Below, piece by piece: positions 2,613-39,690 of a DNA stretch of 64,000 nt. The DNA comes from Dehalococcoidia bacterium. Lineage in GTDB: Bacteria; Chloroflexota; Dehalococcoidia; Lucifugimonadales; Lucifugimonadaceae. Numbering within the stretch: position 1 is the first letter of the stretch; the number at the start of each line of letters is the position of its first letter. The position numbers were made by a program, and so were the translations under genes. The DNA lies in assembly GCA_965243825.1 (NCBI GenBank), contig CBDEVT010000002.1, positions 107,226 to 171,225 of the forward strand. The letters are read 5' to 3'. The notes beneath the pieces are model-generated. The model saw only the letters and a program-made list of their open reading frames with translations. It had not been told where the DNA came from and made no database searches.

Positions 2613-2613
2613 A

Positions 2614-5397: not shown

Positions 5398-5569
5398 GGT
5401 TTGCAGTTGACCTTACTGTTAGCACGAAGGAACGATATTAGTCAGGGCAGGTCTTCGGTCTGGATTGCGACGATCACATGAGCGGAGGTCTCGACAGACC
5501 GTCTATAGTGTCGAAACCTGCTTGCTAATTGTGATTTCGATCTAGAAATTCGCTCATTGGCTGCTGAAA

Positions 5570-10001: not shown

Positions 10002-10765
10002 GCGCGTTGCTGGCTGCTCTGCGGCTGATGACCGTGATTCCTGTCGGCAGCACCGCTCCGACAGGTAACAATGAGCGGGGTGTAGCCAATTCTCCAGCAT
10101 TTTTCGCAGTGTCTGGACTGGTTATTGGGCTGGCTTCGGCCGGAGTGTTCTATGGCGCTTCTGAGTTTTTGCCGGTGCCATTAGCCGCTGTTTTGGCGAT
10201 CGCTCTCACATGGGTACTGTCGGGTGGTCTACATATTGACGGTCTTGGCGATACCTTCGATGGGCTGTTTGGCGGGCGAACCCCCGAACGTAAGCTCGAG
10301 ATCATGTCCGATCCACGTCCAGGAGCGTTCGGTGTCGCTGCCATCGCCTTCGTGCTGCTGGTGAAGTGGATTGCAATATCTGAACTTGTCCCGGAATCTC
10401 ATTGGGGATTGCTAGTGGTTATCGCGGTTGCCTCCCGTGGGACGGCAGCATTCGCCGTTGTTCTTTTTCCTTATGCAAGACCACTGGGGATTGGCAGTGC
10501 ATACGCCAAACCTGCTATTTGGGTCTTGCCGACTGTGGTATTCACAACCGTTTTTTTCACCGTTGTGTTTGGTGGTTGGGTCAGCCTTATCTCACTGGGT
10601 GTCGCGGCAGCGCTCGGACTCGGCATTGCTCTCTACTCGCTTCGAGCCATCGGCGGCCTGACAGGGGATATCTACGGAGCGATAATTGAACTGACGGAAG
10701 TTGCCGCCCTGGTCTCCCTCATCGCCTTGATCGAGTCGGAGTTCGATGCTGGTGTGATCTGGTGA
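9998..10765 (+). CDS. cobS: Adenosylcobinamide-GDP ribazoletransferase (cobalamin synthase)
   Basis: Polytopic membrane protein with 'HIDGLGDTFDGLFGG'. ATGA overlap with the cobT stop. Confidence 0.93.
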   Translation: MSALLAALRLMTVIPVGSTAPTGNNERGVANSPAFFAVSGLVIGLASAGVFYGASEFLPVPLAAVLAIALTWVLSGGLHIDGLGDTFDGLFGGRTPERKLEIMSDPRPGAFGVAAIAFVLLVKWIAISELVPESHWGLLVVIAVASRGTAAFAVVLFPYARPLGIGSAYAKPAIWVLPTVVFTTVFFTVVFGGWVSLISLGVAAALGLGIALYSLRAIGGLTGDIYGAIIELTEVAALVSLIALIESEFDAGVIW

Positions 10766-10788
10766 TCGAACAGTAAAGGAACCCGGAG

Positions 10789-11340
10789 TTGACGAAGATT
10801 TTTGTGTTGGGAGGGGTGCGGTCCGGCAAGAGCAGTTATGCGGCGACGGTCGCGGAATCACTCTCTGGCGATGAAGGAGTCACGTTGATAGCTACCGCAG
10901 ACTCGGCCAGTGCGGATTCCGGTATGCGGCAGCGGATCGAAAAACACAGGGCGGAACGTCCCGCGCACTGGACTACGCTGGAAGCACCGATCGAACTTGA
11001 CCTAAGCCTCGAAGAGGTTACCCACAATGTCGTGGTTATTGACTGCCTGACCATCTGGCTTTCGAATCTTCTGGCGACATGTGGTGACGCTGACCAATCC
11101 GGCTTCTACATGTTGGCTGAAAACACGATCCAGTCGGCTTTGCGAAATCTCGTCGCCGCGACCGAACGGGCATCGGGGCACTTGATCATTGTCGCTAACG
11201 ATGTCGGTTCAGGTGTTGCTCCCCTTACGCGACTCGGCAACGTGTTTGCAGATATGCAGGGCCTGGTGAATCAACGCATAGCGGCCGTTAGCGATGAGGT
11301 TTACGTCATGACTGCCGGGATACCGACGCGCATCAAATGA
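10789..11340 (+). CDS. cobU: Bifunctional adenosylcobinamide kinase / adenosylcobinamide-phosphate guanylyltransferase
   Basis: P-loop 'VLGGVRSGKSSYA', 183 aa, cob context. TTG start. Confidence 0.9.
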   Translation: MTKIFVLGGVRSGKSSYAATVAESLSGDEGVTLIATADSASADSGMRQRIEKHRAERPAHWTTLEAPIELDLSLEEVTHNVVVIDCLTIWLSNLLATCGDADQSGFYMLAENTIQSALRNLVAATERASGHLIIVANDVGSGVAPLTRLGNVFADMQGLVNQRIAAVSDEVYVMTAGIPTRIK

Positions 11341-12577
11341 GTACATTGACCGCGTCTAGAAGATCATCTTTCTCTACCAGTTCACCCCGGCTGACGAGTT
11401 CGTCATACACGCGACTTGCATATCCTTCTGTGTAGTCCCAAATCGCATCGTCCGGCCGCCTGATTAACAGTAGCCGTTTAGATTCTGCAGCCGCTTCCAG
11501 ATTACGCAGATTGCCGGGACCGACAGCCATCTCACAGATCACGGTGACATCTGCGTTACGCACCAAGACGCGGTGAGCTGCATCCTGTTCCAGAGTTACT
11601 ACCGAAAATGGCGACGACGGTATGTGCTCTATTCCGAGTCGAGTCGCTGTCTGCCGATCCGCATCACCTTTACCAAGGACACATGCAGTGACCGTGTGCC
11701 CTTCCAGGACCAGCCTGTGCATCACGTCTCTTCCTGATCCTGCACCGCAGATCATGTGCACTCTCAGGTGTGAACGTTCTGCGGCACGACTCGATGATTC
11801 GGCGAGTCCAAGAAGTGAGATTGAGGGCCGACCTGAAAGAGCGTCGGGTTCAACCGCCGCGTCCACAGAAAACACATCCCTCAGGCTGACCTGGGAAATC
11901 ACATCCCAGGGAGATCCTTCACGGGCAACCTCACCGTCGTTCAGAAGAACGAGTCGATCACAGTACCGTGCAGCCAGGGAAAGATCGTGTAGTACCAGCA
12001 CAACGGCCGTACCGGATTCTGCCTGTTTCCGTGCAGTAGTCATGGTCAAAAGCTGGTGTTGCATATCAAGACTGGCGGTAGGCTCGTCTAGCAAGAGTAG
12101 ATTCGCCTGTTGCGCCAGAACCCGTGCAAGAGCTATCCGTTGACGTTCTCCACCGGATAGGGTTTGCAGTCGTCGGTCCGCGAACTGAAGCGTTCCGGTC
12201 TGTTCCATTGCCTTCTTCGCGATCCCGATGTCTGAACGGCCTTCGAGCTTGAACATGCCAAGGTGCGGATACCGGCTCATCAGCACGAACTCAAGCGCTG
12301 TGAACGAATGACTGGACGTCGATTGCGGCATGTACGCAACCTGCCTGGCTCTGTCCCGCGATCTGAGTTGGTGGAGATCGGTACCACCGACGATGATCTT
12401 GCCGTTTTCAAAAGGAATAAGGCCAGCCATCGCACGTAGCAGTGTTGTCTTACCGCTACCGTTCGGTCCGACGATTCCGACTAATTCTCCTGGGTCGACT
12501 TTGATGCTTACTTCGTCGAGTACGCGGCGACCACCCAGTGTGACAACCAGGTTTTCTGCTTCAAGAGTCGCTACCAA
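11333..12577 (-). CDS. btuD: ABC transporter ATP-binding protein (Fe-siderophore/cobalamin type) fused to a ~150-aa C-terminal domain of unknown function
   Basis: Walker A 'GPNGSGKTT', signature 'LSGGERQR', Walker B 'LLLLDEPT'. At 414 aa it is about 150 aa longer than typical family members. The extra C-terminal region begins 'VHMICGAGSGRDVMHRLVLEGHTV'. It is the last gene of the riboswitch-controlled operon. The btuD symbol is inferred from context. Confidence 0.85.
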   Translation of the reverse strand: MVATLEAENLVVTLGGRRVLDEVSIKVDPGELVGIVGPNGSGKTTLLRAMAGLIPFENGKIIVGGTDLHQLRSRDRARQVAYMPQSTSSHSFTALEFVLMSRYPHLGMFKLEGRSDIGIAKKAMEQTGTLQFADRRLQTLSGGERQRIALARVLAQQANLLLLDEPTASLDMQHQLLTMTTARKQAESGTAVVLVLHDLSLAARYCDRLVLLNDGEVAREGSPWDVISQVSLRDVFSVDAAVEPDALSGRPSISLLGLAESSSRAAERSHLRVHMICGAGSGRDVMHRLVLEGHTVTACVLGKGDADRQTATRLGIEHIPSSPFSVVTLEQDAAHRVLVRNADVTVICEMAVGPGNLRNLEAAAESKRLLLIRRPDDAIWDYTEGYASRVYDELVSRGELVEKDDLLDAVNVLI

Positions 12578-12930: not shown

Positions 12931-14061
12931 TTAGGGATGAGTGAACGGAGCGAACGTTTCGTTTCCGAACATCTGGGGGTAGAACAGCTTTGCAGACTCC
13001 TCGATGCCACGTACGTTCCAGTGCGAAAGCGTCGTGAAGAACGTGGGATCGGCGTAGTAAACCTTGCGGTCGCGGATCGCAGGCACATTCGCCAACGCTG
13101 CTTCGTCATACAACTGGTCTGCGAACTGGAGTGCCGAACCCTCGGGCTGAGTCAGCAGGATGATGTCTGGGTTCATTGCAGCAATGCTCTCGATGCTGAC
13201 AGTCTGGTGCGATTCGATCCCGGCTTCCTTCGCTGCGTTAATGCCGCCCGCAGATTCGATGATCCCACCTTCAGTTGAACCTCCACCAGCAACCCATATG
13301 TCTGAGTACAGGGCCGCTGATAGTACATGTGGACGTTCGGGATCCTCAGCGTCCAGCTGATCTTGGACGGCTCTTACCCGGTCCGTCACCTCATCGGCAA
13401 GCTCAATTGCACGTTCCTCAGCGCCAAGCATGTAGCCGAGAAGGAGGATATTTGGGACATTGCCCAGGGCGGAGTCTTCAAGCTCTGCCCTTATCACGTG
13501 AATGCCCAATCCCGTCAACTGATCGACGAGGTCAGCAGAGGTGAAAGCCGAAGCAATAACGATTTCCGGCTCGAGGCTGATGATCTCCTCAGGATCGCTC
13601 CCGGCGTCAGGGAGATCCTGAAACTCCTCCCATGACGCAGAAGTTGCTGGATCCTTGAAGAACGAAGCAGTAGCAACTAGCACATCGCCACCGGCCAGGG
13701 CCGCGACTATTTCGGCATGACCCAGAGAGAGGCTGTAGATGCGAGTTGGGGGTGCATCCAGGGTTATCTCACCTGAAGATGTCTCGATAGTGCGCGGCCA
13801 ATCAAAGTCATCTCCTGGCTTTATGCCCGGGATCTCTGCGAATCTATCGAGGCCTTCGGGTGTAGGTGCGGCGGTCGCCGTGGCCGTAGGTTCAGGCGTC
13901 GCCGTTGGCTCGCTTGTGGCCGTCGGCTCTGGTGTTGCGGTGGGTGCAGGTGTTGCCGTTGCACTTTCTTCACTGCCGCATGCTGTGGCAACCACAGCGA
14001 CTAACATCACTCCCAGTAACAGCGTCCTTACTTTTCTCAACCGGCTGAACACTTCAGACAT
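12931..14061 (-). CDS. btuF: ABC transporter periplasmic/substrate-binding lipoprotein, BtuF/FhuD (cluster A-II) type
   Basis: Lipobox-like 'VVATAC|GS', PT linker 'ATPAPTATPEPTATSEPTATPEPTAT', then a two-lobe binding-protein body. It lies between the FecCD permease and the ATPase. Confidence 0.85.
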   Translation of the reverse strand: MSEVFSRLRKVRTLLLGVMLVAVVATACGSEESATATPAPTATPEPTATSEPTATPEPTATATAAPTPEGLDRFAEIPGIKPGDDFDWPRTIETSSGEITLDAPPTRIYSLSLGHAEIVAALAGGDVLVATASFFKDPATSASWEEFQDLPDAGSDPEEIISLEPEIVIASAFTSADLVDQLTGLGIHVIRAELEDSALGNVPNILLLGYMLGAEERAIELADEVTDRVRAVQDQLDAEDPERPHVLSAALYSDIWVAGGGSTEGGIIESAGGINAAKEAGIESHQTVSIESIAAMNPDIILLTQPEGSALQFADQLYDEAALANVPAIRDRKVYYADPTFFTTLSHWNVRGIEESAKLFYPQMFGNETFAPFTHP

Positions 14062-14083: not shown

Positions 14084-15166
14084 CTAGAACGTCTCGGTAC
14101 GTGACCTGTTTCTGATCAGTAAAAGCAGGAAAAAAGGAGCGCCAAACATCGCCGTGATGATGCCAACTCTCAACTCGGCCGGAGAAGCGAGGTTGCGCGC
14201 CAGCGTGTCGGCGATGAGCAAGAAAAGCCCTCCGCCTAATGCGCTCAAAGGAATGAGCGCGCGGTGGTCCGGTCCGATCAAGAGCCTGATCGAGTGCGGA
14301 ACCACGAGCCCAACGAACGCAATCGTGCCAGTGAAAGCGACCGCTGTCCCCGTCATCAGGGCAGCGGCAGCCAGTAGCACAACCCGCACGAACCCGACTC
14401 TCACACCGAGCGACTTAGCTTCGTCCTCGCCAACCAGCAGCAGGTTCAAGTCTCGGGCAAGTGCCAGTATGATTCCGCCCCCGATCAACATGATCGGAAG
14501 CACAATCCGTATCGATTCCCACCGTGCGCCTTCGAGCCCGCCGGCAAGCCAGAACACCATCTGTCGCTGAGCTTCCAGGTCAGCGGTAAGGATGATCACG
14601 GCCGAAGTGACAGCACCGAAGAATGAACTGACCGCGACGCCAGCAAGTAGCAGTGACGCCATTGACACACGACCGCCTGCTGCGATTCCGACTGTGAATA
14701 CGACGATGGTCGAAACACCTGCGCCAACAAAGGCGAACAAGGGTAGAAACAGTGTGGATGTAGCGGCAAGACCGGCGGCAATCGCGATGACAGCGCCAAG
14801 TGCGCCGCCTGCTGAAACGCCGATGATGCCAGGATCTGCCAACGGATTGCGGAAGAGTCCCTGCATCGTCACGCCAGCCACTCCGAGTCCGGCTCCTGCA
14901 CCAAGCGCAAGCAGCAACCTTGGGATACGAATGTTCTCTATCACCGCCTGCTGGGTACTCGTCGCGGATGAATCGCCAAGTCCTGCCCAAGAAAAAACCG
15001 CCGACAGCACGTCCGCAAAAGCTATGGCAACAGGTCCTGTGGACAACGCTGTGAGAGAAGCAGCAAGTAGCAGAAGGCCGATCACCACCGAACCCATGAC
15101 GAGTCTGTAGGTGACCGAAGATGCGGCAAGTGAGCCGCGTTGTTTCCGTACCGTAAGTCGCAGCAC
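14084..15166 (-). CDS. btuC: FecCD/BtuC-family ABC transporter permease
   Basis: Polytopic, with 'TIAFVGLVVPHSIRLLIG'. The track ORF extends to 15277, but that part overlaps an intrinsic terminator of the riboswitch expression platform. In-frame GTG 15166 lies immediately after the terminator. ATG 15097 is an alternative start. Confidence 0.85.
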   Translation of the reverse strand: MLRLTVRKQRGSLAASSVTYRLVMGSVVIGLLLLAASLTALSTGPVAIAFADVLSAVFSWAGLGDSSATSTQQAVIENIRIPRLLLALGAGAGLGVAGVTMQGLFRNPLADPGIIGVSAGGALGAVIAIAAGLAATSTLFLPLFAFVGAGVSTIVVFTVGIAAGGRVSMASLLLAGVAVSSFFGAVTSAVIILTADLEAQRQMVFWLAGGLEGARWESIRIVLPIMLIGGGIILALARDLNLLLVGEDEAKSLGVRVGFVRVVLLAAAALMTGTAVAFTGTIAFVGLVVPHSIRLLIGPDHRALIPLSALGGGLFLLIADTLARNLASPAELRVGIITAMFGAPFFLLLLIRNRSRTETF

Positions 15167-15169
15167 GCG

Positions 15170-15194
15170 AAAAACCCCGACGCTTGCGCCAGGG
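15170..15194 (-). terminator. Intrinsic terminator (riboswitch expression platform)
   Basis: Minus strand reads CCCTGGCG-CAAG-CGTCGGGG followed by TTTTT: an 8-bp stem including two G-U pairs, a 4-nt loop and a U-tract. Confidence 0.6.
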
Positions 15195-15329
15195 TTCTTT
15201 GTCTCTTGCGGCGAGTCGAGTTCAGGTTGTTGGCCACCAGGGCAACAGTCCATCAAGGACCCACGGCCGAGAGCCACTCCCTTGGCGGGAAGCGATCACT
15301 CAGCCTCTCGGGCAGGTCTCCTGACTCTC

Positions 15330-15497
15330 GGCTCTGGCGTCTGACTACACCTTCCCGTTCCGTTTCCGAAACAGTGGCTTTCGCAGACAGACTCGCCGAT
15401 CACAGTGGCGCTACCGCAGCGGAATCTCACCGCTTTCCCATTTTCACCGGTAACCCTTCCTGTATTGGTTACCGGCACCCGGGAGGCGTTGTCTTTT
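15330..15497 (-). promoter_or_regulatory. Cobalamin (B12) riboswitch aptamer
   Basis: Minus strand reads '...GGTGCCGGTAACCAATACAGGAAGGGTTACCGGTGAAAATGGGAAAGCGGTGAGATTCCGCTGCGGTAGCGCCACTGTGATCGG...GAAAGCCACTGTTTCGGAAACGGAACGGGAAGGTG'. It contains the conserved GGGAA, GGTGAGATTCC, GCCACTG (B12 box) and GGGAAGG elements. It sits upstream of the btuC-like operon. Confidence 0.85.
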
Positions 15498-24063: not shown

Positions 24064-24645
24064 ATGAATCAGACCAAAGACAAAAACGAGGCACGTGAGC
24101 GCCAAGAGAGAAGCATCGCACAGCTGGCGCTGCCCGGTCTCGGCGGCGAAGCTGTTGCAAAGCCGTTTGATCTTTTTTCCCTCATAAGAGAGACATTCCT
24201 CAATCGAGTACCTGGCGCTCAAGCGCCTGCGATAAAAGTCTCTCGCAGAATGACCCGTACGTTGGGCTCTTTCACTCCCACAAAGAACCTGATCCGACTT
24301 TCGTCTCGACTCCTTGCACTCGGAACTCCAGACGAGCAGAAACACGTCGCCTTACATGAGGTTGCGCACGCCATCGTTCATCAGCGCACACCCAGGGCCG
24401 GCGCGCATGGACGGGAGTTCAGAGCAGTTTGTAAAGAACTCGGACTAAAGACTGGCCGGTTCGTAGAGATCGATCATGCGGCCTGGAGAGACCGCTTACG
24501 GTTTGTAGTTGAATGCCCGTCGTGCGGCGAAAACATTCTGCGTCGGAAACGAGTTTCCAGAGTTAGATGCAGGTGCGGCGCTGCACTTCGTCCGAGCAGG
24601 TGGGCACAGGTAGGTGTTACTGAAGCCGGTCTGAAAACGCTTTAG
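24064..24645 (+). CDS. SprT-like zinc metalloprotease domain protein with C-terminal zinc ribbon
   Basis: 'HEVAHAIVH' HExxH motif; 'CPSCGENI...CRCG' Cys pairs. Confidence 0.75.
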   Translation: MNQTKDKNEARERQERSIAQLALPGLGGEAVAKPFDLFSLIRETFLNRVPGAQAPAIKVSRRMTRTLGSFTPTKNLIRLSSRLLALGTPDEQKHVALHEVAHAIVHQRTPRAGAHGREFRAVCKELGLKTGRFVEIDHAAWRDRLRFVVECPSCGENILRRKRVSRVRCRCGAALRPSRWAQVGVTEAGLKTL

Positions 24646-24676
24646 CGACTTAACGAGATCGTTTCGGGAAAGACTC

Positions 24677-25189
24677 ATGGAATGCAATGAACTATTGCGG
24701 GACGCGTTTTCTCGCATAACAGAGCTGGTCACCGTCTCGGCATCCGGACTTGATCGGAAGCGACTGACGTATCGGCCTGAACCAGGTGCTAATTCAATCG
24801 CCTGGCTAATCTGGCATCTCACTCGCATACAGGACGATCATGTTTCTGAGATCGCCGGACTTGAGCAGGCATGGGTGTCTGATGGCTGGGCGGCAAAGCT
24901 TGGAATGGAACCGGACCCCGAAAACGACGGTCGCGGACATGGACCAAGTGAAGTAGCGGCAATCGCTCCAGACAGCCCCGATCTACTCATTGCATACAAC
25001 AAGGCTGTTTCAGACCGGACGTTCAGCTACCTGGCGAGAGCATCTTCAGCCGACATGGCCCTAATCATTGACCGATCCTATGATCCGCCGGTCACGGTTG
25101 GTGTCCGATTGGTCAGCGTCATAAGTGACAACATTCAGCACGCTGGGCAGGCAAGATATCTCCGGGGTATTGTCGACCGGATCCTCTGA
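24677..25189 (+). CDS. DinB-superfamily (DUF664/mycothiol transferase-like) protein
   Basis: Four-helix-bundle family pattern 'NSIAWLIWHLTRIQDDHV...HAGQARYLRG'. Confidence 0.7.
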   Translation: MECNELLRDAFSRITELVTVSASGLDRKRLTYRPEPGANSIAWLIWHLTRIQDDHVSEIAGLEQAWVSDGWAAKLGMEPDPENDGRGHGPSEVAAIAPDSPDLLIAYNKAVSDRTFSYLARASSADMALIIDRSYDPPVTVGVRLVSVISDNIQHAGQARYLRGIVDRIL

Positions 25190-33698: not shown

Positions 33699-34466
33699 TT
33701 AGGCTGGTTTCTGCATTACCAGCAAATCTCTGTGCTCATTGGTGACTATCCCGCTCGGTGTACCCAATCGATCTAGAATATCGAGAACGGTGTTGCCGTC
33801 TCTTTCAATATCAATGCCTTGAGCAAAGCCTGTTTTCCGCAGCCAGAACAGTAATGATGCAGGGTCGCCAAGTACGAACGGTACATCGTATTCATCGCGC
33901 CGCAGCAGTCGAAAGCCGGCAGCACCAAGTGCTATCTCCGTACCAGGTAGGGCTACCTCGTCTGGTACCTGCTGCAAAGCCCCCCGGGATTCCTCGAAAG
34001 CAGCACGTACTGCGCGCGCATCTTGATTGCCAACCTGCTGAGTGACGAAGATTCCGCCCGGAGCAAGTACGCGGTTTATCTCTTCTGGAAACAGAGGAGA
34101 GTGTCGATTCAGCACGATGTGGATCACACCGTCTGGTACCGGAACCGCGTGTGCAGAGGCACGAGTGAAGTGCACTCGCATACGGAGTTTCATTGGCAAG
34201 GAAAGCCTTGCATAGGCGATACGGGTCTTGGAGACGTCGACACCGATCCCGCGCTTGAGATTAGCCGCCAGTTCCGCGAGCAGTCTTCCATTGCCGCAAC
34301 CCATGTCCAACACTGATTCCTTGCCAGTGAGATGCTCCTCCGCCACGGCAGCAAGGTCCCACGCAATCGAAGCTCGCCGAGTTTTGTACTGAAGCAGGTC
34401 CCAGCCTCGCCATCCAGCGGTGGCCGCCGCAAGCTTCTTTATGTCGTCAATCGAATGGGGTGTCAT
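33699..34466 (-). CDS. Class I SAM-dependent methyltransferase
   Basis: Motif I 'VLDMGCGNGRL', 255 aa. Confidence 0.8.
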   Translation of the reverse strand: MTPHSIDDIKKLAAATAGWRGWDLLQYKTRRASIAWDLAAVAEEHLTGKESVLDMGCGNGRLLAELAANLKRGIGVDVSKTRIAYARLSLPMKLRMRVHFTRASAHAVPVPDGVIHIVLNRHSPLFPEEINRVLAPGGIFVTQQVGNQDARAVRAAFEESRGALQQVPDEVALPGTEIALGAAGFRLLRRDEYDVPFVLGDPASLLFWLRKTGFAQGIDIERDGNTVLDILDRLGTPSGIVTNEHRDLLVMQKPA

Positions 34467-35473: not shown

Positions 35474-36517
35474 CTACGCGAACGCGACTGTGTTTAGGTC
35501 CGGCGTAATCGAAGGAAGAGGGATACCGACTCGCGATCCCTCATGCAGAATCACATGACGGAGAGCCTTTGTTGCGCCCAATATCGAGACGCTCACCGTT
35601 CCAGTCTGCAAACGCGAGCGCCGGAACACGATATGAATTTCGGCTGTCGAATCGAGTTCGCGCTCAATAGCCTCGACCGTGGTTGCTGCATATGAAGTCG
35701 TGAATTCCGGACCGACCTCTACCAAAGCAAGCGCTCGCTCCAACTGTTGACCAGGTGCGAGGTCGCGAGAGATTGCTCCAATGGCTTCGATCACAGCTTC
35801 AGTCGCTCCAACGTGACCGTAACCATTGCCGCTTCCCAATATGGTCTGGGAGCCATCTTGCAGCACAGAGTTCAGATCTCCGGCGTTACTCCCGTTAGAT
35901 GTTCCATCACCGCTACAGACCGCGGCGATCGTGTTCACAAGCCTGGAAACCTGGTCCCGCTCGTCACGCAGAACCTCGGGCAGTGTCTTCGAGTCGTTTC
36001 TCTGGACCTCAAATACCGAGTCGGATATCGATTCAAGAACGGCCAAGGTGTCCGCAGCGCGAAATGTTTCCTTGATCGGCTCGAATCCCAGTGGCATCAA
36101 CGCTACGGATATCACTACCGCGCCGGACAGTTTCGCCTCTTCGACCACCATTGGACTTGCAACGGAACCGATTGTGCTTGCTGGACTGGCCACAACGATG
36201 ACGCAATCGCTGCCCGAGACTAGCTCCCGTATCTCTGTACGGTGCTTGACTGAGCCATCGGTCTGAGGTGCTACCGTTGCTGCCGTTGACGATCCTGATC
36301 TATTTGGCTCGAACAGAATTTTGCTGTCGCACCTTTTCGTGGCTAGTGCCGATGCACTGCTGTCCACAAAAGTCACTGAAACATCATTTAGTGGACCAGT
36401 ACCGATATCTGATACGGCCCGACAGCCAACTCCACCGATAGCGACGACCCGCACCCGAGAACCTCTGGACTCCGGTTGGCTTCCGAAGAATGTGGACTGC
36501 GTCGAATCTGATCTCAT
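35474..36517 (-). CDS. Divergent FtsZ/tubulin-fold protein with degenerate GTP-binding motifs
   Basis: Collinear with FtsZ throughout. 'VRVVAIGGVGCRAV' matches 'IKVIGVGGGGGNAV'. 'DCVIVVASPASTIGSVASPMVVEEAK' matches '[26 protein letters not shown]'. 'NAGDLNSV' matches the T7 'NVDFADV'. The C-terminal subdomain 'ALALVEVGPEF...IHIVFRR...VSVSILGAT' is also present. Confidence 0.7.
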   Translation of the reverse strand: MRSDSTQSTFFGSQPESRGSRVRVVAIGGVGCRAVSDIGTGPLNDVSVTFVDSSASALATKRCDSKILFEPNRSGSSTAATVAPQTDGSVKHRTEIRELVSGSDCVIVVASPASTIGSVASPMVVEEAKLSGAVVISVALMPLGFEPIKETFRAADTLAVLESISDSVFEVQRNDSKTLPEVLRDERDQVSRLVNTIAAVCSGDGTSNGSNAGDLNSVLQDGSQTILGSGNGYGHVGATEAVIEAIGAISRDLAPGQQLERALALVEVGPEFTTSYAATTVEAIERELDSTAEIHIVFRRSRLQTGTVSVSILGATKALRHVILHEGSRVGIPLPSITPDLNTVAFA

Positions 36518-36630
36518 TAACAGCTACTCCTGTGTTTTTCCCGGCAAGCTCTTACCTGCTGGGAAACATCTGTTCTAAACAGAAATTAGCACGGGCGTTC
36601 TAATAAATCACTGCAATCTGTCACAGTTTT

Positions 36631-36644
36631 CGAACAGTTGTGCG
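36631..36644. promoter_or_regulatory. Putative LexA (Cheo-type SOS) box
   Basis: CGAACAGTTGTGCG versus the palindromic CGAAC-N4-GTTCG: perfect left half, 4/5 in the right half. It lies 51 nt upstream of the MmcB-like gene, in the divergent region shared with the FtsZ-like gene. Confidence 0.3.
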
Positions 36645-36694
36645 AAAAAATTCGCGACAATCTGGTTTCCTGAACCTGAACATGAGACGGTGAG

Positions 36695-37372
36695 ATGAAC
36701 GCATCGATTCAGCAACGTAGTGAAACCGATCTGACTTACCAACTGAAGTGGGCTGCCCACAAGTGGCTATACGGGCAGGCCGGTTGCAGGGTGATCGGAT
36801 TCGAAGTCCGACTCGAGGGCCCGGCTGGTCGAATCGCAGATGTGGTTGGTGTAGACAGCAAGAACCGTGTCTATCTCATTGAGGTGAAGGCGTCGAAATC
36901 CGATCTCCGAAAGGACAATCACACTGAACGAGAACGGAATCGACTTGAAGAGGACTCGAAGGGACTGATCGAGGCTACATTGTTCGCTTCTGAGCTCGCA
37001 GGATTAACTACCGCAGACAAGAACCCAGATGCGACGAACGATCAGCTCGATAAGACGAACTCCCAGATAGAAAAGATAAACAGGCGAGTGTCTTCATTCA
37101 GCACCAAGTTTCACAACCCTGCGTACCTGAGAGCTGCTGACTTCCACTACTTGATGGCACCGCATGGACTTATCTGGCCGAGTGATCTGCCGCCGTTCTG
37201 GGGGCTGCTCAATGGAGATGCCGAGACCGTTGTTGAAGCTCCGCCAAAACAGATCAGACGCGTTACCGCTCATGTTTTACGTGCGATCGGTAAGGCAAAC
37301 TCCCGCGACCTTATGAAAGCCTGTGGCGTGCGGTATACCAACCCATCTGCACAGGTGGCCTCCACCGACTAA
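36695..37372 (+). CDS. PD-(D/E)xK nuclease-fold protein, MmcB-like DNA-repair family, with inserted coiled-coil segment
   Basis: 'GRIADVVGVD...VYLIEVKASKSDLRKD' (D...E.K core) and the distal 'ADFHYLMAPHGLI...LPPFWGLL', as in MmcB-type proteins. About 60 charged residues are inserted between the two. Confidence 0.45.
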   Translation: MNASIQQRSETDLTYQLKWAAHKWLYGQAGCRVIGFEVRLEGPAGRIADVVGVDSKNRVYLIEVKASKSDLRKDNHTERERNRLEEDSKGLIEATLFASELAGLTTADKNPDATNDQLDKTNSQIEKINRRVSSFSTKFHNPAYLRAADFHYLMAPHGLIWPSDLPPFWGLLNGDAETVVEAPPKQIRRVTAHVLRAIGKANSRDLMKACGVRYTNPSAQVASTD

Positions 37373-37428
37373 TGCAAAGCCCGGGAACCTTCGTTCCTTC
37401 CGGATAATGCGTAGAGCCAAGACGCATA

Positions 37429-39690
37429 TTAAGAATCGGAGAGGTTTGTCTCTCCGCCTTGGCCAGGCTTACCGTTAATTGCAGATCCGCTTCCAGGCTG
37501 ACCTATTTCCAGCTGATTGTCAGCCAGTACCGGTGATGAGCCGTCGTCAGGGTCGACGTCATATATCGCAAAACTCCAGCCGCCTTCACCGCCGGTGCCG
37601 GTGTCCCCGGCTGTTTCGAGTAGGAAGCTGCAGCACCCGCCGGAACCTCCGGAACTGGAGCCGTCACCTCCATCGCTCCCGCCAAGCCCAGCGGCACCAC
37701 CGATGCCACCTTGTCCTCCGCTGCCGGTTTTTATCTGGTTACCGGTGATTGTCGGCGCCAGACCAGGGCCGACCACAATTCCGTAAGAAGCACCGCCACC
37801 ACCGCCTCCAGCTTGGCCACCGATACCGCCTGAGCCACCACCTCCACCTTCTCCGCCGTCTCCGCTACGTCCTAAGTCACAACCAAGGAACGTGCACTGA
37901 TTGCCACCACCGACGCCCCCGTCTCCTCCGTTGCCGCCTATTCCACCTGGACCGCCGTTTCCACCTGGTCCTCCGTCGCCGACACTGATCACGTTGTCCT
38001 CAACAATCGCCAGAGCGGGTGAATACAGCAGTATTCCAATGCTGGCGCCTCCGCCTCCCGGCGCGCCACCACCAGCACCACCAGCCCCGCCTCCGCCTGC
38101 ACCTCCGCCGCCACCACCGGTTAGACCTGCGCCGCCAGCACCACCCCCACCTCCTCCGCCACCACCACCATGGGCACCACGACCGCCGGCTGAACCTGTA
38201 CCCGGCTTGTAGAGATCCTTGGAAAAGCTGCCTGCACCTGTCCCGCCCTGGCCTCCGTTACCTCCGACCCCGCCATCTCCACCCTTGCCGTCACCGACTC
38301 CCCCTTCACCCACAGGGTCGCCATTACCTGCGGCACCACCGGGGCCTTCACCACCCGCGCCTGAGTCTCCATCTTCCAGTAACAGACCACCTCCACCGGC
38401 ACCGCCTTTCCCGCCATCTACACTTCTGTTTCCACCATTCCCGCCAGAACCGGCGTTCCCACCATCCTCGCCGTCTTTGCCGTTTCCTCCGTCTTTGCCG
38501 TTCCCGCCATTTCCGCCGGTTGCTCCGGTAGTACCAGCTCCTCCATTTCCGGTCGATACCTCGTTGCGTCTTATTTCTACTTTGGAGATCGTTGAGACCT
38601 GGATTCCGTAGCTAGAGCCTCCATCACCGCCACTCGGGTTGCCGGTCTCTCCATTGCCTGCACGAAGAATGTTGTCTTCGACATACAGAGTTGCTCCGCC
38701 AGATCCTGCTACACGCAGGGCGAAGGAACTCTCACCTGGAGTTGACCCGTCGCCGGCAATGACGTTGAAGCCAGAGAACCATGCATCGGCGTTGACCGTT
38801 CTGAAGTGGACTGCCGTACTCGGCCCCTCAATGCGTGTCTTGTTGCCTTCGATGTCGCGGATCCAGTCAGGACCGTAGCCTCCGTAGAGGCTCGTTGTAG
38901 TGGGCGGCGAAATAGTCTGTTCAGGTGTGTACGCAGCGTCGCCTTCTAGCGACATGACGTGGATGTCCTGATCGGGGCCGTCGATGCTGTTTATCGCATG
39001 GACGATCGTGGCGTACGGATTTTCGCGTGATCCGTTTCCGTTCTCGTCACTGCCTGAATTACCGTCGACAAATATCCCCGGATCACCAAGGTGCTCAAAG
39101 GCGTCGATCCTGACCTGATCAGGGAGCGAGTCTCCGTTGCCGTCGTTCACGGTCAGTTCAAAAATGATCGTGCTGACCTGCATTGGCAGGGCGAAACTTG
39201 GTGTCGGTCCAATGAAAAAACCGACATCACCGGTGACGTCAGGTCCATGTACCTGTGTCCACCTGAAGCTTAATGGGTCGCCATCTGGGTCTGAACTGGC
39301 ACTGCCGTTCAGTCCGATGAGGTTGCCGATACGGGTCTCCAGGTCACGACCAGCATCTGCGATTGCGTTTGCTGGCTCAAGTGTAGGCGTTGGCGATGGT
39401 GCTCTGGTAGCCGTTGCCGTGGCGTTGGGCCGCGATGTAGATGTTGGGCGAGGCGTACTGCCGGTAGAGGCCGTCGAGGTGGACCTCACCTGGGAGGTCG
39501 CAGTTACCTCAGGTTCGTCCGATTCATCGTCCGAATCCGAACCGCTACAGGTTACAGCCAGTATCGCCAGTCCAAGGGCCGTGAGAATTAGCCAGAACCG
39601 AAGTCGATTCGATGTCTCAATGAACGCCGTCGCCACAGTCTTTCCTCCGGTAAGCGCGTACGGTACCTGATCCAGTACGTTTGAATGCAT
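37429..39690 (-). CDS. Secreted lipoprotein-like protein: PT linker, PKD-like domain, right-handed beta-helix region, very glycine-rich C-terminal half
   Basis: Signal/lipobox-like 'LGLAILAVTC|SGS'. 'DPDGDPLSFRWTQVHGPDV' is PKD-like. 'NPYATIVHAINSI' matches the beta-helix N-cap seen in pectate-lyase-fold proteins. About 320 aa consist of GGxGG/GGNGG repeats. Confidence 0.8.
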   Translation of the reverse strand: MHSNVLDQVPYALTGGKTVATAFIETSNRLRFWLILTALGLAILAVTCSGSDSDDESDEPEVTATSQVRSTSTASTGSTPRPTSTSRPNATATATRAPSPTPTLEPANAIADAGRDLETRIGNLIGLNGSASSDPDGDPLSFRWTQVHGPDVTGDVGFFIGPTPSFALPMQVSTIIFELTVNDGNGDSLPDQVRIDAFEHLGDPGIFVDGNSGSDENGNGSRENPYATIVHAINSIDGPDQDIHVMSLEGDAAYTPEQTISPPTTTSLYGGYGPDWIRDIEGNKTRIEGPSTAVHFRTVNADAWFSGFNVIAGDGSTPGESSFALRVAGSGGATLYVEDNILRAGNGETGNPSGGDGGSSYGIQVSTISKVEIRRNEVSTGNGGAGTTGATGGNGGNGKDGGNGKDGEDGGNAGSGGNGGNRSVDGGKGGAGGGGLLLEDGDSGAGGEGPGGAAGNGDPVGEGGVGDGKGGDGGVGGNGGQGGTGAGSFSKDLYKPGTGSAGGRGAHGGGGGGGGGGAGGAGLTGGGGGGAGGGGAGGAGGGAPGGGGASIGILLYSPALAIVEDNVISVGDGGPGGNGGPGGIGGNGGDGGVGGGNQCTFLGCDLGRSGDGGEGGGGGSGGIGGQAGGGGGGASYGIVVGPGLAPTITGNQIKTGSGGQGGIGGAAGLGGSDGGDGSSSGGSGGCCSFLLETAGDTGTGGEGGWSFAIYDVDPDDGSSPVLADNQLEIGQPGSGSAINGKPGQGGETNLSDS
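37590..38540 (-). repeat. Low-complexity glycine-rich coding repeats (GGxGGxG...)
   Basis: Direct reading. The opposite strand gives spurious Pro-rich ORFs. Confidence 0.85.

What the first reader, a model, noticed from the sequence alone, without database searches (positions are those of the whole stretch)
35474..36517. FtsZ-fold paralog with destroyed tubulin signature (GGGTGTG replaced by SPASTIGSV)
Seen in sequence: the 347-aa protein is collinear with FtsZ, covering the T1 region, the G-box region, a T7-like 'NAGDLNSV' and the C-terminal subdomain. However, the phosphate-binding G-box is 'ASPASTIGSVASP' and T1 is 'GGVGCR'.

Established knowledge: FtsZ and tubulin need GGGTG(T/S)G for GTP binding.

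Inference: this is a pseudo-GTPase FtsZ relative. It could cap or poison FtsZ filaments or act as a scaffold. It is monocistronic and shares a divergent regulatory region with a DNA-repair nuclease gene.
Basis: partly seen in the sequence, partly recalled or inferred. Interest (0 to 1): 0.65.

Follow-up and report, generated by a model that had tools for sequence, protein, structure and literature searches.

The report
Damage-box-controlled dead FtsZ copy
A Dehalococcoidia bacterium carries a fast-evolving copy of the cell-division protein FtsZ that has lost its GTP-handling residues; it is always paired with a DNA-repair-type nuclease gene behind repeated SOS(LexA)-like operator boxes, which suggests a damage-induced brake on division built from FtsZ itself.

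Summary
ORF 35474-36517(-) encodes a 347-aa protein with a confident two-domain FtsZ fold. Its tubulin signature GGGTGTG reads ASTIGSV, T1 reads GGVGCR and the T3 loop is lost.

It is not a one-off. I found 13 syntenic orthologous loci (group I) and 11 loci of a second, distant Dehalococcoidia group (group II).

- All members lack the T7 NxDxxD loop.
- In group I the G-box runs from canonical GGGTGSG to the window's fully destroyed form.
- Group I proteins are only 23-73% identical, while flanking AtpD is 93-98% and CarB 84-91% identical.
- ORFs stay intact and dN/dS is about 0.15-0.34.

In both groups, in different genomic contexts, the gene sits head-to-head with an MmcB-like PD-(D/E)XK nuclease gene. 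The spacer holds conserved GAAC-N4-GT(T/G)C boxes, the Gram-positive LexA-box form. Two of them overlap the FtsZ-like promoter.

Best reading (about 0.4): an SOS-type, damage-induced FtsZ mimic that caps or sequesters FtsZ.

Not established: that the boxes bind LexA, that a canonical ftsZ co-exists in these genomes, and any biochemical activity.

A conserved N-terminal QxxLF motif that resembles a beta-clamp-binding motif is an extra lead.

The parts
35474..36517 (-). FtsZ-like pseudo-GTPase gene, 347 aa (group I family member, among the most degenerate)
   Evidence: ORF. Pfam PF00091 43.8 bits. TIGR00065 72.9 against 295.2 bits. AF2 pLDDT 87.1. Foldseek top 50 all FtsZ. Canonical-FtsZ HMM score 128 bits, against 246 for the least-decayed member P0011.
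36485..36499 (-). N-terminal short linear motif QSTFF (family consensus Q-x-x-L-F), in the disordered extension before strand S1; a candidate beta-clamp-binding-like motif
   Evidence: Translation. Present in 12 of 14 group I proteins, in 0 of 252 canonical FtsZ, and reached by 0 of 20000 shuffles. Gln 93% and Phe 86% conserved. AF2 pLDDT 50-59 for residues 1-20.
36419..36436 (-). T1-loop remnant GGVGCR; the T1 Asn of canonical GGGGxN is Arg33
   Evidence: Translation. Arg in 93% of the family, Asn in 83% of canonical FtsZ.
36152..36190 (-). T4 / G-box remnant ASPASTIGSVASP (canonical [13 protein letters not shown])
   Evidence: Translation. Alignments.
35957..35959 (-). Arg187 in helix H7, invariant in group I, replacing the Asp that 79% of canonical FtsZ have at this column
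   Evidence: Translation. Column statistics.
35864..35896 (-). T7-loop remnant NGSNAGDLNSV (canonical N-x-D-F-A-D-V); the first Asp is Asn211 and there is an extra residue
   Evidence: Translation. Column statistics. T7 is degenerate in every family member.
36518..36694 (.). Divergent regulatory spacer between the FtsZ-like and MmcB-like genes; conserved far better than the FtsZ-like coding sequence
   Evidence: Alignment of six loci. Same architecture in further loci.
36562..36577 (.). Operator box C (minus strand TAGAACAGATGTTTCC), at about +1 to +15 of the predicted FtsZ-like transcript
   Evidence: PWM scan: only three sites in 64 kb. Conserved in 12 of 13 group I loci and decayed in L092. 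The position relative to the -10 element is my reading of the sequence.
36583..36591 (-). Predicted extended -10 element TGCTAATTT of the FtsZ-like promoter, overlapping box B
   Evidence: Read from the sequence. TGCTA(A/T/G)TTT is conserved in the loci; group II has TGCTATGAT. The generic sigma-70 scan, which needs both hexamers, found no promoter, so this is inference.
36587..36602 (.). Operator box B (minus strand TAGAACGCCCGTGCTA), overlapping the promoter spacer and the TG of the extended -10
   Evidence: Present in all 13 group I loci and, as TAGAAC-N4-GTGCTA, in group II.
36630..36645 (.). Operator box A (TCGAACAGTTGTGCGA), about 50 nt upstream of the MmcB-like start codon
   Evidence: Exactly 43 bp from box B in all 13 group I loci. 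It was not part of the DNA pattern that retrieved L087-L090, so those four are independent confirmation. It occurs in either orientation (GAAC..GTGC or GCAC..GTTC).
36695..37372 (+). MmcB-like PD-(D/E)XK nuclease gene, 225 aa; the conserved divergent partner
   Evidence: Pfam PF06319 24.2 against 22 bits. The D..EVK[AS]S core and several other motifs are conserved across both groups. It is adjacent to an FtsZ-like gene in every locus whose flank is long enough to show it (23 of 24; L093 is a 1.46-kb contig that keeps only the spacer).

Best explanation
The gene encodes an FtsZ-derived pseudo-GTPase. It belongs to a Dehalococcoidia-specific two-gene module: the FtsZ-like gene and an MmcB-like PD-(D/E)XK nuclease gene, transcribed divergently from one spacer.

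Proposed mechanism:
1. In undamaged cells a dimeric repressor, most likely LexA, occupies three GAAC-N4-GT(T/G)C operators. Box A sits in front of the nuclease gene. Boxes B and C cover the extended -10 and the start site of the FtsZ-like gene, keeping it tightly off.
2. DNA damage removes the repressor and both genes are expressed.
3. The nuclease takes part in repair.
4. The FtsZ-like protein keeps the FtsZ fold but has no working T7 (bottom-face) loop. In this window it also lacks a nucleotide pocket. It docks on FtsZ monomers or on the growing bottom end of FtsZ filaments and cannot be extended. Z-ring assembly stalls until repair is finished. That is the job SulA or MciZ do, done here by a crippled copy of FtsZ itself.

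Shown here: the fold, the motif losses, the family, the conserved gene pairing, the operator architecture, fast evolution under purifying selection.

Inferred: the identity of the repressor, damage induction, and any interaction with FtsZ.
For: Fold and decay:
- FtsZ fold with both subdomains.
- Of the positions at least 80% conserved in canonical FtsZ, the family has replaced the T1 Asn with Arg (93%), the T2 Asn with Asp, the T6 Asn, and the T7 Asp. It also has an invariant Arg where 79% of canonical FtsZ have the H7 Asp. The window protein additionally lacks T3 and every Gly of the GGG core.
- T7 NxDxxD is degenerate in all members, including those with canonical GGGTGSG (P0007, L088) and in group II.

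Capping logic:
- The bottom, C-terminal face of FtsZ is the growing plus end and the common target of SulA, MciZ and MinC. Capping it shortens filaments efficiently (PMC11938149).
- The T7 loop contacts the next subunit's nucleotide (PMC5414002).

Gene pairing:
- It holds in 13 group I loci and 11 group II loci. In group II the other neighbours (SDR, methyltransferase, carB, ATP synthase) are replaced by unrelated genes.

Operators:
- The symmetrised consensus is TAGAACATATGTTCTA.
- Only 3 sites occur in the 64-kb window, all in the spacer.
- Background is 12 hits in 1.44 Mb, never two within 100 bp.
- The A-B distance is 43 bp in all 13 group I loci.
- Box A is present in four loci retrieved with a pattern that did not include it.
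- The LexA box of B. subtilis and S. aureus is CGAACN4GTTCG (PMC3091678; PMC9578287).
- From my memory, Dehalococcoides LexA binds GAACN4GTTC (Fernandez de Henestrosa et al. 2002, J Bacteriol 184:6073; paper not held).

SOS context:
- MmcB is an SOS-regulated PD-(D/E)XK endonuclease in Caulobacter (PMC9578287).

Selection:
- dN/dS is about 0.15-0.34 and all ORFs are intact, so the protein is in use.

Precedent:
- ARC3, an FtsZ-like-domain protein, directly inhibits Z-ring assembly (bioRxiv 10.1101/2024.01.08.574726 abstract; PMC12232670).
Against: - No canonical ftsZ could be shown in any genome that carries the module, so the target is assumed.
- LexA binding is inferred from motif similarity only. 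Each box deviates from GAAC-N4-GTTC at one position. The preferred form is the asymmetric GAAC-N4-GTGC. The group II site on the nuclease side is GGACAAATGTCC. No lexA, recA or uvrA promoter of this lineage could be examined.
- Group I proteins are only 23-73% identical. That is odd for a protein that must recognise the very conserved FtsZ surface.
- In the window protein the top face is also damaged: no nucleotide, T3 lost.
- Groups I and II are each closer to canonical FtsZ than to each other by HMM score, so a single origin rests on gene context.
- The tight link to a nuclease and the clamp-motif-like N-terminus fit a repair role equally well.
Confidence: 0.4

Rival explanations
1. It is a repair-complex component rather than a division inhibitor. 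The FtsZ-fold protein works physically with the MmcB-like nuclease as a scaffold, regulator or localisation factor. It may be tethered to the beta sliding clamp through its N-terminal QxxLF motif (group I) or its C-terminal DLF-containing peptide (group II), and it does not touch FtsZ.
For: - The only feature conserved across both groups and both genomic contexts is the pairing with the nuclease gene and the shared operators.
- Conserved terminal short motifs sit in otherwise variable tails.
- Many SOS proteins carry clamp-binding motifs (my knowledge; Dalrymple 2001 is listed as ref 44 in PMC8147279).
- In group II the two proteins diverge at the same rate: 66% against 68% median identity.
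- Conservation of FtsZ interface residues is poor in group I.
Against: - No precedent for an FtsZ-fold protein in DNA repair.
- The genes are divergent rather than co-transcribed, so stoichiometric co-expression is not enforced.
- In group I the FtsZ-like protein evolves 1.3-2.3 times faster (dN) than the nuclease, which is unexpected for obligate partners.
- The clamp-motif reading rests on a five-residue resemblance recalled from memory.
Confidence: 0.25
2. It is a damage-inducible selfish, toxin-like or defence-type module. A nuclease plus a cytoskeletal decoy has moved between genomic sites, and the FtsZ-like protein evolves fast because of conflict with phage-encoded FtsZ inhibitors or similar antagonists.
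For: - The pair occupies different chromosomal contexts in groups I and II.
- Divergence in group I is extreme despite conserved flanks.
- The MmcB-like protein hits several phage protein families of unknown function (PHROGs, E down to 2.7e-10).
Against: - No PADLOC hit for either protein.
- No integrase, transposase or phage genes next to the module.
- Within each group the position is stable.
- Viral tubulin/FtsZ structures match far worse than cellular FtsZ: E=3.5e-13 and TM at most 0.64, against E=1e-25 and TM about 0.8.
- dN/dS is below 1, although dS is saturated and site-wise selection was not tested.
Confidence: 0.1
3. It is the lineage's own, only FtsZ, relocated and decaying because these bacteria divide in another way; a relic rather than a paralog.
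For: - No canonical ftsZ was found in the 64-kb window or in any fetched flank.
- I could not retrieve one from the complete chromosomes.
- Some members keep a canonical G-box.
Against: - This is absence of evidence only. The tools could not scan a named chromosome.
- Another Chloroflexota genome has a fully canonical FtsZ (L109).
- The gene is not in a division-cluster context.
- Tight repression by operators over its own promoter does not suit a housekeeping division gene.
- 23-73% identity among genomes with 93-98% identical AtpD is incompatible with an essential polymer.
- T7 is lost in all members.
Confidence: 0.05
4. It is a functionless duplicate on its way to becoming a pseudogene.
For: - Progressive loss of catalytic motifs along the family, and the highest dN/dS (0.34) on the most degenerate branch, window against L081.
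Against: - Full-length open reading frames persist in 25 or more diverged copies.
- dN/dS is well below 1.
- There are family-specific invariant residues (Arg187, Asp166, Val168, Leu161) and a conserved N-terminal motif.
- The promoter, operators and Shine-Dalgarno site are conserved.
Confidence: 0.05

Closest known systems
Canonical bacterial FtsZ (TIGR00065 / PF00091 + PF12327)
   Same: Same two-domain fold, collinear from S1 to the last strand. T5 PFxFE, and the single Gly and the Pro that survive from the G-box region, are retained.
   Different: - 72.9 bits against the 295.2 equivalog cut-off.
- G-box, T1 Asn, T2 Asn, T3, T6 Asn, H7 Asp and the first T7 Asp are lost.
- No Pfam FtsZ_C hit.
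- No long linker or conserved DIPxFLR tail.
- Not in a division gene cluster.
- Sits behind SOS-like operators.
- Evolves many times faster than its flanking genes.
SulA (SOS-induced FtsZ sequesterer of gammaproteobacteria)
   Same: The proposed role and regulation: a LexA-type operator on the promoter, and action on the FtsZ polymerisation face (PMC11938149; PMC9578287).
   Different: [quoted passage not shown] Here the candidate inhibitor is an FtsZ homologue, and it is paired with a nuclease gene.
MciZ (B. subtilis) and engineered FtsZ bottom-face / T7 mutants
   Same: Block the growing end of FtsZ filaments; they are effective cappers (PMC11938149). The family-wide loss of T7 mimics bottom-face mutants.
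   Different: MciZ is a 40-residue (my recollection) sporulation peptide. The mutants are laboratory constructs. This would be a naturally evolved, separately encoded capper.
ARC3 (plant chloroplast division)
   Same: An FtsZ-like domain protein that directly inhibits Z-ring assembly. This is the only known case of an FtsZ-derived FtsZ antagonist.
   Different: ARC3 is eukaryotic and has middle and MORN domains. It belongs to the chloroplast Min system and is not damage-regulated. No specific sequence relationship was shown.
FtsZl1 / FtsZl2 (Makarova & Koonin 2010, PMC2875224)
   Same: Divergent prokaryotic members of the FtsZ-tubulin superfamily, found by genomics.
   Different: Both keep the GGGTG(S/T)G signature. 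FtsZl1 has coiled-coil and alpha-helical C-terminal regions and lacks T6-H7 and the FtsZ C-domain. FtsZl2 has a 300-aa unrelated C-terminal region. Their gene contexts (vWA, GTPase, OmpA) differ.
MmcB of Caulobacter crescentus (the partner gene's family)
   Same: A PD-(D/E)XK endonuclease that is SOS-regulated (PMC9578287). The partner here passes the Pfam MmcB-like threshold.
   Different: The match is short (24 bits, core motif only). No FtsZ-like neighbour is reported for Caulobacter mmcB.

Membership tests
Canonical FtsZ (cell-division GTPase) | Tubulin/FtsZ GTPase-domain fold followed by the FtsZ C-terminal subdomain | tested here: met
   PF00091 43.8 against 33 bits. AF2 pLDDT 87.1 with both subdomains. 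Foldseek top 50 all FtsZ, about 305 aligned columns. The Pfam FtsZ_C profile itself does not hit the window protein.
Canonical FtsZ (cell-division GTPase) | Tubulin signature GGGTG(T/S)G in loop T4 | tested here: not met
   The aligned residues are A-S-T-I-G-S-V.
Canonical FtsZ (cell-division GTPase) | T7 synergy loop N-x-D-x-x-D that completes the neighbour's GTPase site | tested here: not met
   The window has N208..N211..D214 with an extra residue. The loop is degenerate in all family members.
Canonical FtsZ (cell-division GTPase) | Score above the curated equivalog cut-off (TIGR00065) | tested here: not met
   72.9 against 295.2 bits.
Canonical FtsZ (cell-division GTPase) | Flexible linker plus conserved C-terminal peptide (D-I-P-x-F-L-R type) for membrane anchors | tested here: not met
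   Group I tails are 20-35 aa, variable, and without the motif. Group II has a different conserved peptide, DLFGAPDWL..P[AV]LL.
Canonical FtsZ (cell-division GTPase) | GTP binding and GTP-dependent polymerisation | not testable with these tools
   Needs biochemistry. The sequence predicts loss in the window protein.
LexA (SOS) regulon member | Operator matching the LexA box of the phylum (GAAC-N4-GTTC type) and overlapping the promoter | tested here: inconclusive
   There are three conserved boxes, each one mismatch from GAAC-N4-GTTC, with symmetrised consensus TAGAACATATGTTCTA. They are specific to the spacer, and B and C overlap the predicted -10 and +1. The identity of the binding protein was not tested. 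No lexA or uvrA promoter of the lineage was available. The Dehalococcoides LexA box is recalled from memory.
LexA (SOS) regulon member | Induction by DNA damage through RecA-dependent LexA cleavage | not testable with these tools
   Needs expression data or EMSA.
SOS cell-division inhibitors (functional class: SulA, YneA, SosA, SidA) | Blocks Z-ring assembly or the divisome when induced | not testable with these tools
   This is inference from the fold, the T7 loss and the operators only.
FtsZl1 / FtsZl2 | Retained GGGTG(S/T)G plus family-specific C-terminal regions (a coiled coil, or a 300-aa alpha/beta region) and vWA/OmpA-type gene context | tested here: not met
   The definition is from PMC2875224. 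The window protein is 347 aa with an FtsZ-type C-domain, no signature, and a different context.
Phage/plasmid tubulins (TubZ, PhuZ) | Closer in sequence and structure to TubZ/PhuZ than to FtsZ; a phage or plasmid context | tested here: not met
   PHROGs PhuZ only 24.3 bits. BFVD best E=3.5e-13 and TM at most 0.64, against PDB FtsZ E=3.7e-25. No mobile-element genes nearby.
Beta-clamp-binding proteins | Exposed QL[SD]LF / QxxL(x)F-type peptide that binds the DnaN cleft | tested here: inconclusive
   QxxLF-like peptide in 12 of 14 group I N-termini, in a disordered segment. The consensus is recalled from memory and binding is untested. Group II lacks it but has a C-terminal xxDLF peptide.

The most novel reading that the evidence does not exclude
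The module is a previously undescribed DNA-damage checkpoint built from FtsZ itself. A LexA-repressed FtsZ mimic without GTPase is tethered through a QxxLF-type peptide to beta clamps left on damaged or replicating DNA. There it caps FtsZ filaments locally while its co-induced partner nuclease processes the lesion. This would couple repair status directly to Z-ring assembly, a damage-dependent nucleoid occlusion. The graded decay of the nucleotide pocket in group I would show how a polymerising GTPase is converted step by step into a nucleotide-free inhibitor.
Probability: 0.12. Interest if true: 0.9.

Novelty: new variant of a known kind. Interest (0 to 1): 0.74.

Why it matters
SOS-linked division inhibitors are lineage-specific and unknown for most phyla, Chloroflexota included. 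Every characterised one is unrelated to its target.

A natural FtsZ-derived inhibitor would be the bacterial counterpart of plant ARC3. It would also be a natural version of the T7 and bottom-face mutants used to work out filament polarity.

The family offers a ready-made evolutionary series within one syntenic locus: canonical G-box, then partly decayed, then fully destroyed. That series can test which FtsZ features are needed for binding as opposed to polymerisation, and how pseudo-enzymes arise.

It also flags an annotation problem. Sources call these proteins 'cell division GTPase FtsZ' (JGI) or 'hypothetical protein' (NCBI). Group II falls below the Pfam threshold altogether. Genome-based inferences about division machinery in Dehalococcoidia can therefore be misled.

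Tried and rejected
1. **Word-index homology search with the protein.** Only the self-hit. With a 10-member profile it returned 6 hits. The exhaustive phmmer search was needed.
2. **Genome scan with the protein itself.** Nothing.
3. **carB scan.** The conserved promoter DNA signature and the MmcB-like protein worked instead.
4. **Single-sequence AF2.** Useless, pLDDT 37.
5. **Finding a canonical ftsZ in module-bearing genomes.** All routes failed.
   - tblastn of all fetched DNA.
   - The context of P0015, which turned out to be an IS-rich locus of unknown lineage.
   - Taxonomy of canonical representatives, which carried no names.
   - A contig-length 'fingerprint' search with P0153, which turned out to be a Dormibacterota FtsZ; none of the best 120 hits matched.
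   - A last scan with P0011, which found only unrelated canonical FtsZs.
6. **Literature.** The Dehalococcoides LexA paper and the Dalrymple clamp-motif paper are not held, so both points rest on my memory. No paper in the library links a LexA regulon to an FtsZ homologue.
7. **Defence-system reading.** No PADLOC hits for either protein.
8. **Phage-tubulin reading.** Weak.
9. **5'-UTR hairpin after box C.** Significant only in the window (z=-3.4) and L083 (z=-2.1), not in six other loci. Rejected as a conserved element.
10. **Generic sigma-70 scan.** No promoter found in the spacer. The extended -10 reading is mine.
11. **dN/dS.** dS is saturated (1.2-5.9, and undefined in some pairs), so the ratios are only rough.
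12. **Single origin of groups I and II by sequence.** Not supported by HMM cross-scores. It rests on context.
Full report
**1. The observation**

Its homology to FtsZ is significant but far from orthologue level.

- Pfam Tubulin/FtsZ GTPase domain: 43.8 bits against a gathering score of 33.
- TIGR00065 ftsZ: aligned over residues 7-301 at 72.9 bits, against the curated 295.2.
- PDB: 49 FtsZ chains hit, best E=1.8e-13.
- AF2: a single-sequence run failed (pLDDT 37). With a 99-sequence alignment the model is confident (pLDDT 87.1, pTM 0.85). Low confidence falls precisely in the N-terminal 20 residues, the T3 region (70-85), the T7 loop (201-210) and the C-terminal tail.
- Foldseek against PDB returns only FtsZ in the top 50, with about 305 aligned columns and target-normalised TM 0.73-0.83. 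Viral tubulins and PhuZ match much worse.

The quoted strings are real: ASPASTIGSVASP, GGVGCR and NGSNAGDLNSV. In alignment, GGGTGTG corresponds to A113-STIGS-V119.

**2. How far the decay goes**

I aligned the family with 87 canonical FtsZ proteins. Of the positions at least 80% conserved in canonical FtsZ, the family as a whole has changed the following:

| Element | Canonical | Family |
|---|---|---|
| T1 | Asn (83%) | Arg (93%) |
| T2 | Asn (79%) | Asp |
| T6 | Asn (92%) | lost |
| T7 | NxDxxD | degenerate |

At the H7 column the family has an invariant Arg (100%) where 79% of canonical FtsZ have Asp.

The window protein and its closest relative P0002 have additionally lost the T3 loop (GLGAGG) and every glycine of the GGG core. 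That these residues bind GTP or activate its hydrolysis is established knowledge for FtsZ. Actual loss of binding is inferred, not measured.

**3. Organism and family**

The window comes from a Dehalococcoidia (Chloroflexota) genome.

The exhaustive search of 1.84 billion representatives found 2197 FtsZ-superfamily hits. Only about ten stand apart from generic FtsZ: P0002-P0009 and P0011, at E=2e-75 to 3e-19. P0010, which scores in the same range, is a 731-aa tandem double FtsZ (see section 10).

Their contigs, plus loci retrieved with the promoter DNA signature and with the neighbouring nuclease, give 13 distinct 'group I' loci. All have the same gene order: ATP synthase operon, Gly-rich secreted protein, MmcB-like gene, FtsZ-like gene, SDR, methyltransferase, carB.

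Within this single orthologous position the G-box forms a series:

- GGGTGSG (P0007, L088)
- GGGAGSA (P0011)
- TGGTG(T/S)G (L090, L089)
- TGSTGSS (P0004)
- SGTTGST, SGITGSN, RGVTGSS
- ASAIGSI (P0002)
- ASTIGSV (window)

Scores against a canonical-FtsZ profile fall from 246 bits (P0011) through 210 (L088, P0007) to 128 (window) and 112 (P0002).

**4. Rate of evolution**

Between the window and L082, amino-acid identities are:

| Protein | Identity |
|---|---|
| AtpA / AtpG / AtpD | 96 / 96 / 98% |
| CarB | 91% |
| SDR | 87% |
| MmcB-like | 65% |
| Methyltransferase | 63% |
| FtsZ-like | 33% |

Group I proteins are 23-73% identical overall.

All ORFs are intact. Codon-level estimates, rough because dS is saturated, give these dN/dS values:

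| Gene | dN/dS |
|---|---|
| FtsZ-like | 0.15-0.34 |
| MmcB-like | 0.07-0.16 |
| Methyltransferase | 0.09-0.13 |
| SDR | 0.02-0.04 |

The highest value is on the window/L081 branch, where the pocket is gone. The gene is therefore functional but under unusually weak or shifting constraint. It is not a pseudogene.

**5. A two-gene module**

Searching GTDB genomes with the MmcB-like protein also recovered 11 loci of a second, distant Dehalococcoidia group, mostly complete 2.6-3.1 Mb chromosomes. Their MmcB-like proteins are 47-50% identical to the window's.

There the SDR, methyltransferase, carB and ATP-synthase neighbours are absent. They are replaced by NHL, RDD and epimerase genes on one side and by aminotransferase, TPR, holA and ychF on the other. 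Yet an FtsZ-like gene of 370-380 aa again lies head-to-head with the nuclease gene.

Group II proteins are degenerate in their own way:

- T1 reads GVGGAGSxS.
- T3 is lost.
- T4 reads GLGG[DNT][TA]T[LS]E.
- T7 reads LNTAPELLD.
- They keep a variable linker followed by a conserved C-terminal peptide, DLFGAPDWL..P[AV]LL.
- They fall below the Pfam Tubulin threshold, 31.4 against 33 bits.

By HMM cross-scores, each group is nearer to canonical FtsZ than to the other. That is the pattern expected for two long branches from a canonical-like ancestor. Common origin is supported by context, not by sequence. In group II the FtsZ-like and nuclease proteins diverge at equal rates (66% against 68% median identity), so the hyper-acceleration is a group I feature.

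The nuclease has a conserved D..EVK[AS]S core, the PD-(D/E)XK form, and other invariant blocks in both groups.

**6. The regulatory spacer**

The 177-bp spacer (36518-36694) is far better conserved than the FtsZ-like coding sequence. It holds three 16-bp near-palindromes:

- box A at 36630-36645
- box B at 36587-36602
- box C at 36562-36577

Their symmetrised consensus is TAGAACATATGTTCTA. The evidence that these are real sites:

- A matrix built from them finds only these three sites in the 64-kb window.
- It finds 12 sites in 1.44 Mb of unrelated loci, never two within 100 bp.
- The A-B distance is exactly 43 bp in all 13 group I loci.
- Box A was not in the pattern used to fish L087-L090, so its presence there is independent confirmation.
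- Box A occurs as GAAC..GTGC or as its reverse complement in different loci, as expected for a site read by a dimer.

Reading the sequence, TGCTAATTT (36583-36591) is an extended -10 conserved in the loci I aligned. Box B overlaps it, which explains its fixed GTGC half-site. Box C then covers about +1 to +15. This promoter assignment is my inference: the generic sigma-70 scan found nothing.

Group II has the same layout: TAGAAC-N4-GTGCTATGAT, then TTGAAC-N4-GTGCTA.

GAAC-N4-GTTC is the LexA box of B. subtilis and S. aureus (PMC3091678; PMC9578287). As I recall it is also the box of Dehalococcoides (Fernandez de Henestrosa et al. 2002; paper not held). MmcB is SOS-regulated in Caulobacter (PMC9578287).

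The window has no lexA, recA, uvr or fts genes to compare.

**7. Mechanism proposed**

The pieces of evidence:

- The fold is kept.
- The bottom-face T7 loop is lost in every member, including those that could still bind GTP.
- Two operators sit on the gene's own promoter.
- The gene is co-regulated with a repair nuclease.

The most economical reading is a damage-induced FtsZ mimic that binds FtsZ monomers or the growing end of filaments and cannot be extended.

The literature shows that the bottom (C-terminal) face is the plus end, that it is the common target of SulA, MciZ and MinC, and that capping it is highly effective (PMC11938149). ARC3 shows that an FtsZ-like domain can become a direct Z-ring inhibitor.

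Weak points:

- No canonical ftsZ was demonstrated in these genomes.
- The repressor is unidentified.
- The window protein's top face is also damaged.
- Group I surfaces are poorly conserved.

I put this model at about 0.4. A repair-scaffold role with the nuclease gets 0.25. Conflict or defence, relic-FtsZ and decaying-duplicate readings each get 0.1 or less.

**8. An extra lead**

Group I proteins carry a conserved Q-x-x-L-F peptide: QSTFF in the window, QTALF, QRELF, QHRLF and others elsewhere. It lies at residues 7-13, in the disordered segment before strand S1.

- It is present in 12 of 14 members.
- It is absent from 252 canonical FtsZ N-termini.
- It is never reached in 20000 shuffles.

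It resembles the bacterial beta-clamp-binding motif QL[SD]LF. That consensus is from my memory; Dalrymple 2001 is cited as ref 44 in PMC8147279. Group II lacks the N-terminal peptide but has a C-terminal xxDLF-containing peptide. If real, this would place the protein at clamps on DNA. It is untested.

**9. Known families**

It is a member of the FtsZ-tubulin superfamily, but it fails the defining tests of canonical FtsZ: signature, T7, equivalog score and C-terminal peptide.

It is not FtsZl1 or FtsZl2, which keep the signature and have other architectures and contexts (PMC2875224). It is not a phage or plasmid tubulin. It is not a PADLOC defence component.

No paper in the searchable library connects a LexA regulon with an FtsZ homologue. 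Public annotations call these proteins 'cell division GTPase FtsZ' (JGI) or 'hypothetical protein' (NCBI).

I class it as a new variant of a known kind: an FtsZ-superfamily pseudo-GTPase in a new regulatory and genomic association.

**10. What remains open**

The single most important missing fact is whether a canonical ftsZ exists in OZ253938.1 and the group II chromosomes. This is a trivial search that these tools could not perform on a named record.

Next come the identity of the operator-binding protein, damage induction, and direct tests of FtsZ, DnaN and nuclease binding.

P0010, the tandem double FtsZ, and P0082 (GGKTGTG) are further oddities that I did not follow up.

Noticed in passing
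window 36485-36499 (-); the same position in L081, L083, L085, L086-L090, L093: Conserved N-terminal Q-x-x-L-F peptide in the disordered extension of group I FtsZ-like proteins (12 of 14). It is absent from canonical FtsZ and resembles the beta-sliding-clamp-binding motif.
   Followed up: partly
L097-L107 (about 4650-5800 on the minus strand of each locus), e.g. OZ244820.1, OZ241990.1, OY821634.1: A second, more conserved family of degenerate FtsZ-like proteins: 370-380 aa, starting MTIIRDGRN, with G-box GLGG[DNT][TA]T[LS]E and C-terminal peptide DLFGAPDWL..P[AV]LL. It is paired with an MmcB-like gene in a different genomic context and scores below the Pfam Tubulin gathering score.
   Followed up: partly
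window 36537-36566 (-): A strong stem-loop in the predicted 5' UTR of the FtsZ-like mRNA, with its 5' arm overlapping the right half of box C (-19.5 kcal/mol, z=-3.4). It is significant only here and in L083, not in six other loci, so it is probably not a conserved element.
   Followed up: yes
window 37385-37396: A perfect GAACCTTCGTTC (GAAC-N4-GTTC) site in the short spacer between the convergent ends of the MmcB-like gene and the Gly-rich protein gene. Its conservation in other loci was not checked.
   Followed up: no
window 37429-39690 (-): A 753-aa protein with a Ser/Thr/Pro-rich N-terminal region, a PKD-like domain and a very long Gly-rich repetitive region. It is syntenic in group I but only 55-73% identical, so it is another fast-evolving gene next to the module.
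   Followed up: no
window 15294-15497 (-): A cobalamin riboswitch (105 bits) upstream of a FecCD / periplasmic-binding-protein / ABC-ATPase transporter operon (14084-15277, 12931-14061, 11333-12577), next to the cobT/cobS/cobU-type genes (8937-11340).
   Followed up: no
window 24064-25189 (+): Adjacent SprT-like and DinB_2/MST-family genes, whose names are associated with DNA and protein damage. No operator-matrix hit lies upstream of them.
   Followed up: partly
P0010 (731 aa) and P0039 (638 aa) from the exhaustive search; P0082 (320 aa): Other unusual FtsZ homologues. P0010 is a tandem double FtsZ whose second copy has a degenerate T7 (LVNLTLGEL). P0082 has GGKTGTG and no C-terminal tail. 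Their origin and context were not examined.
   Followed up: no
window 33699-34466 (-): The syntenic class I methyltransferase hits the PADLOC model mad2 (52.5 bits). This is probably a generic methyltransferase-domain match. The gene is not part of the conserved two-gene module.
   Followed up: no
window 2533-5397 (+) and 465-2612 (+), 5570-8893 (+): A cluster of very large predicted surface proteins: a 954-aa FG-GAP repeat protein, a 715-aa fn3-containing protein and a 1107-aa protein with no Pfam hit.
   Followed up: no
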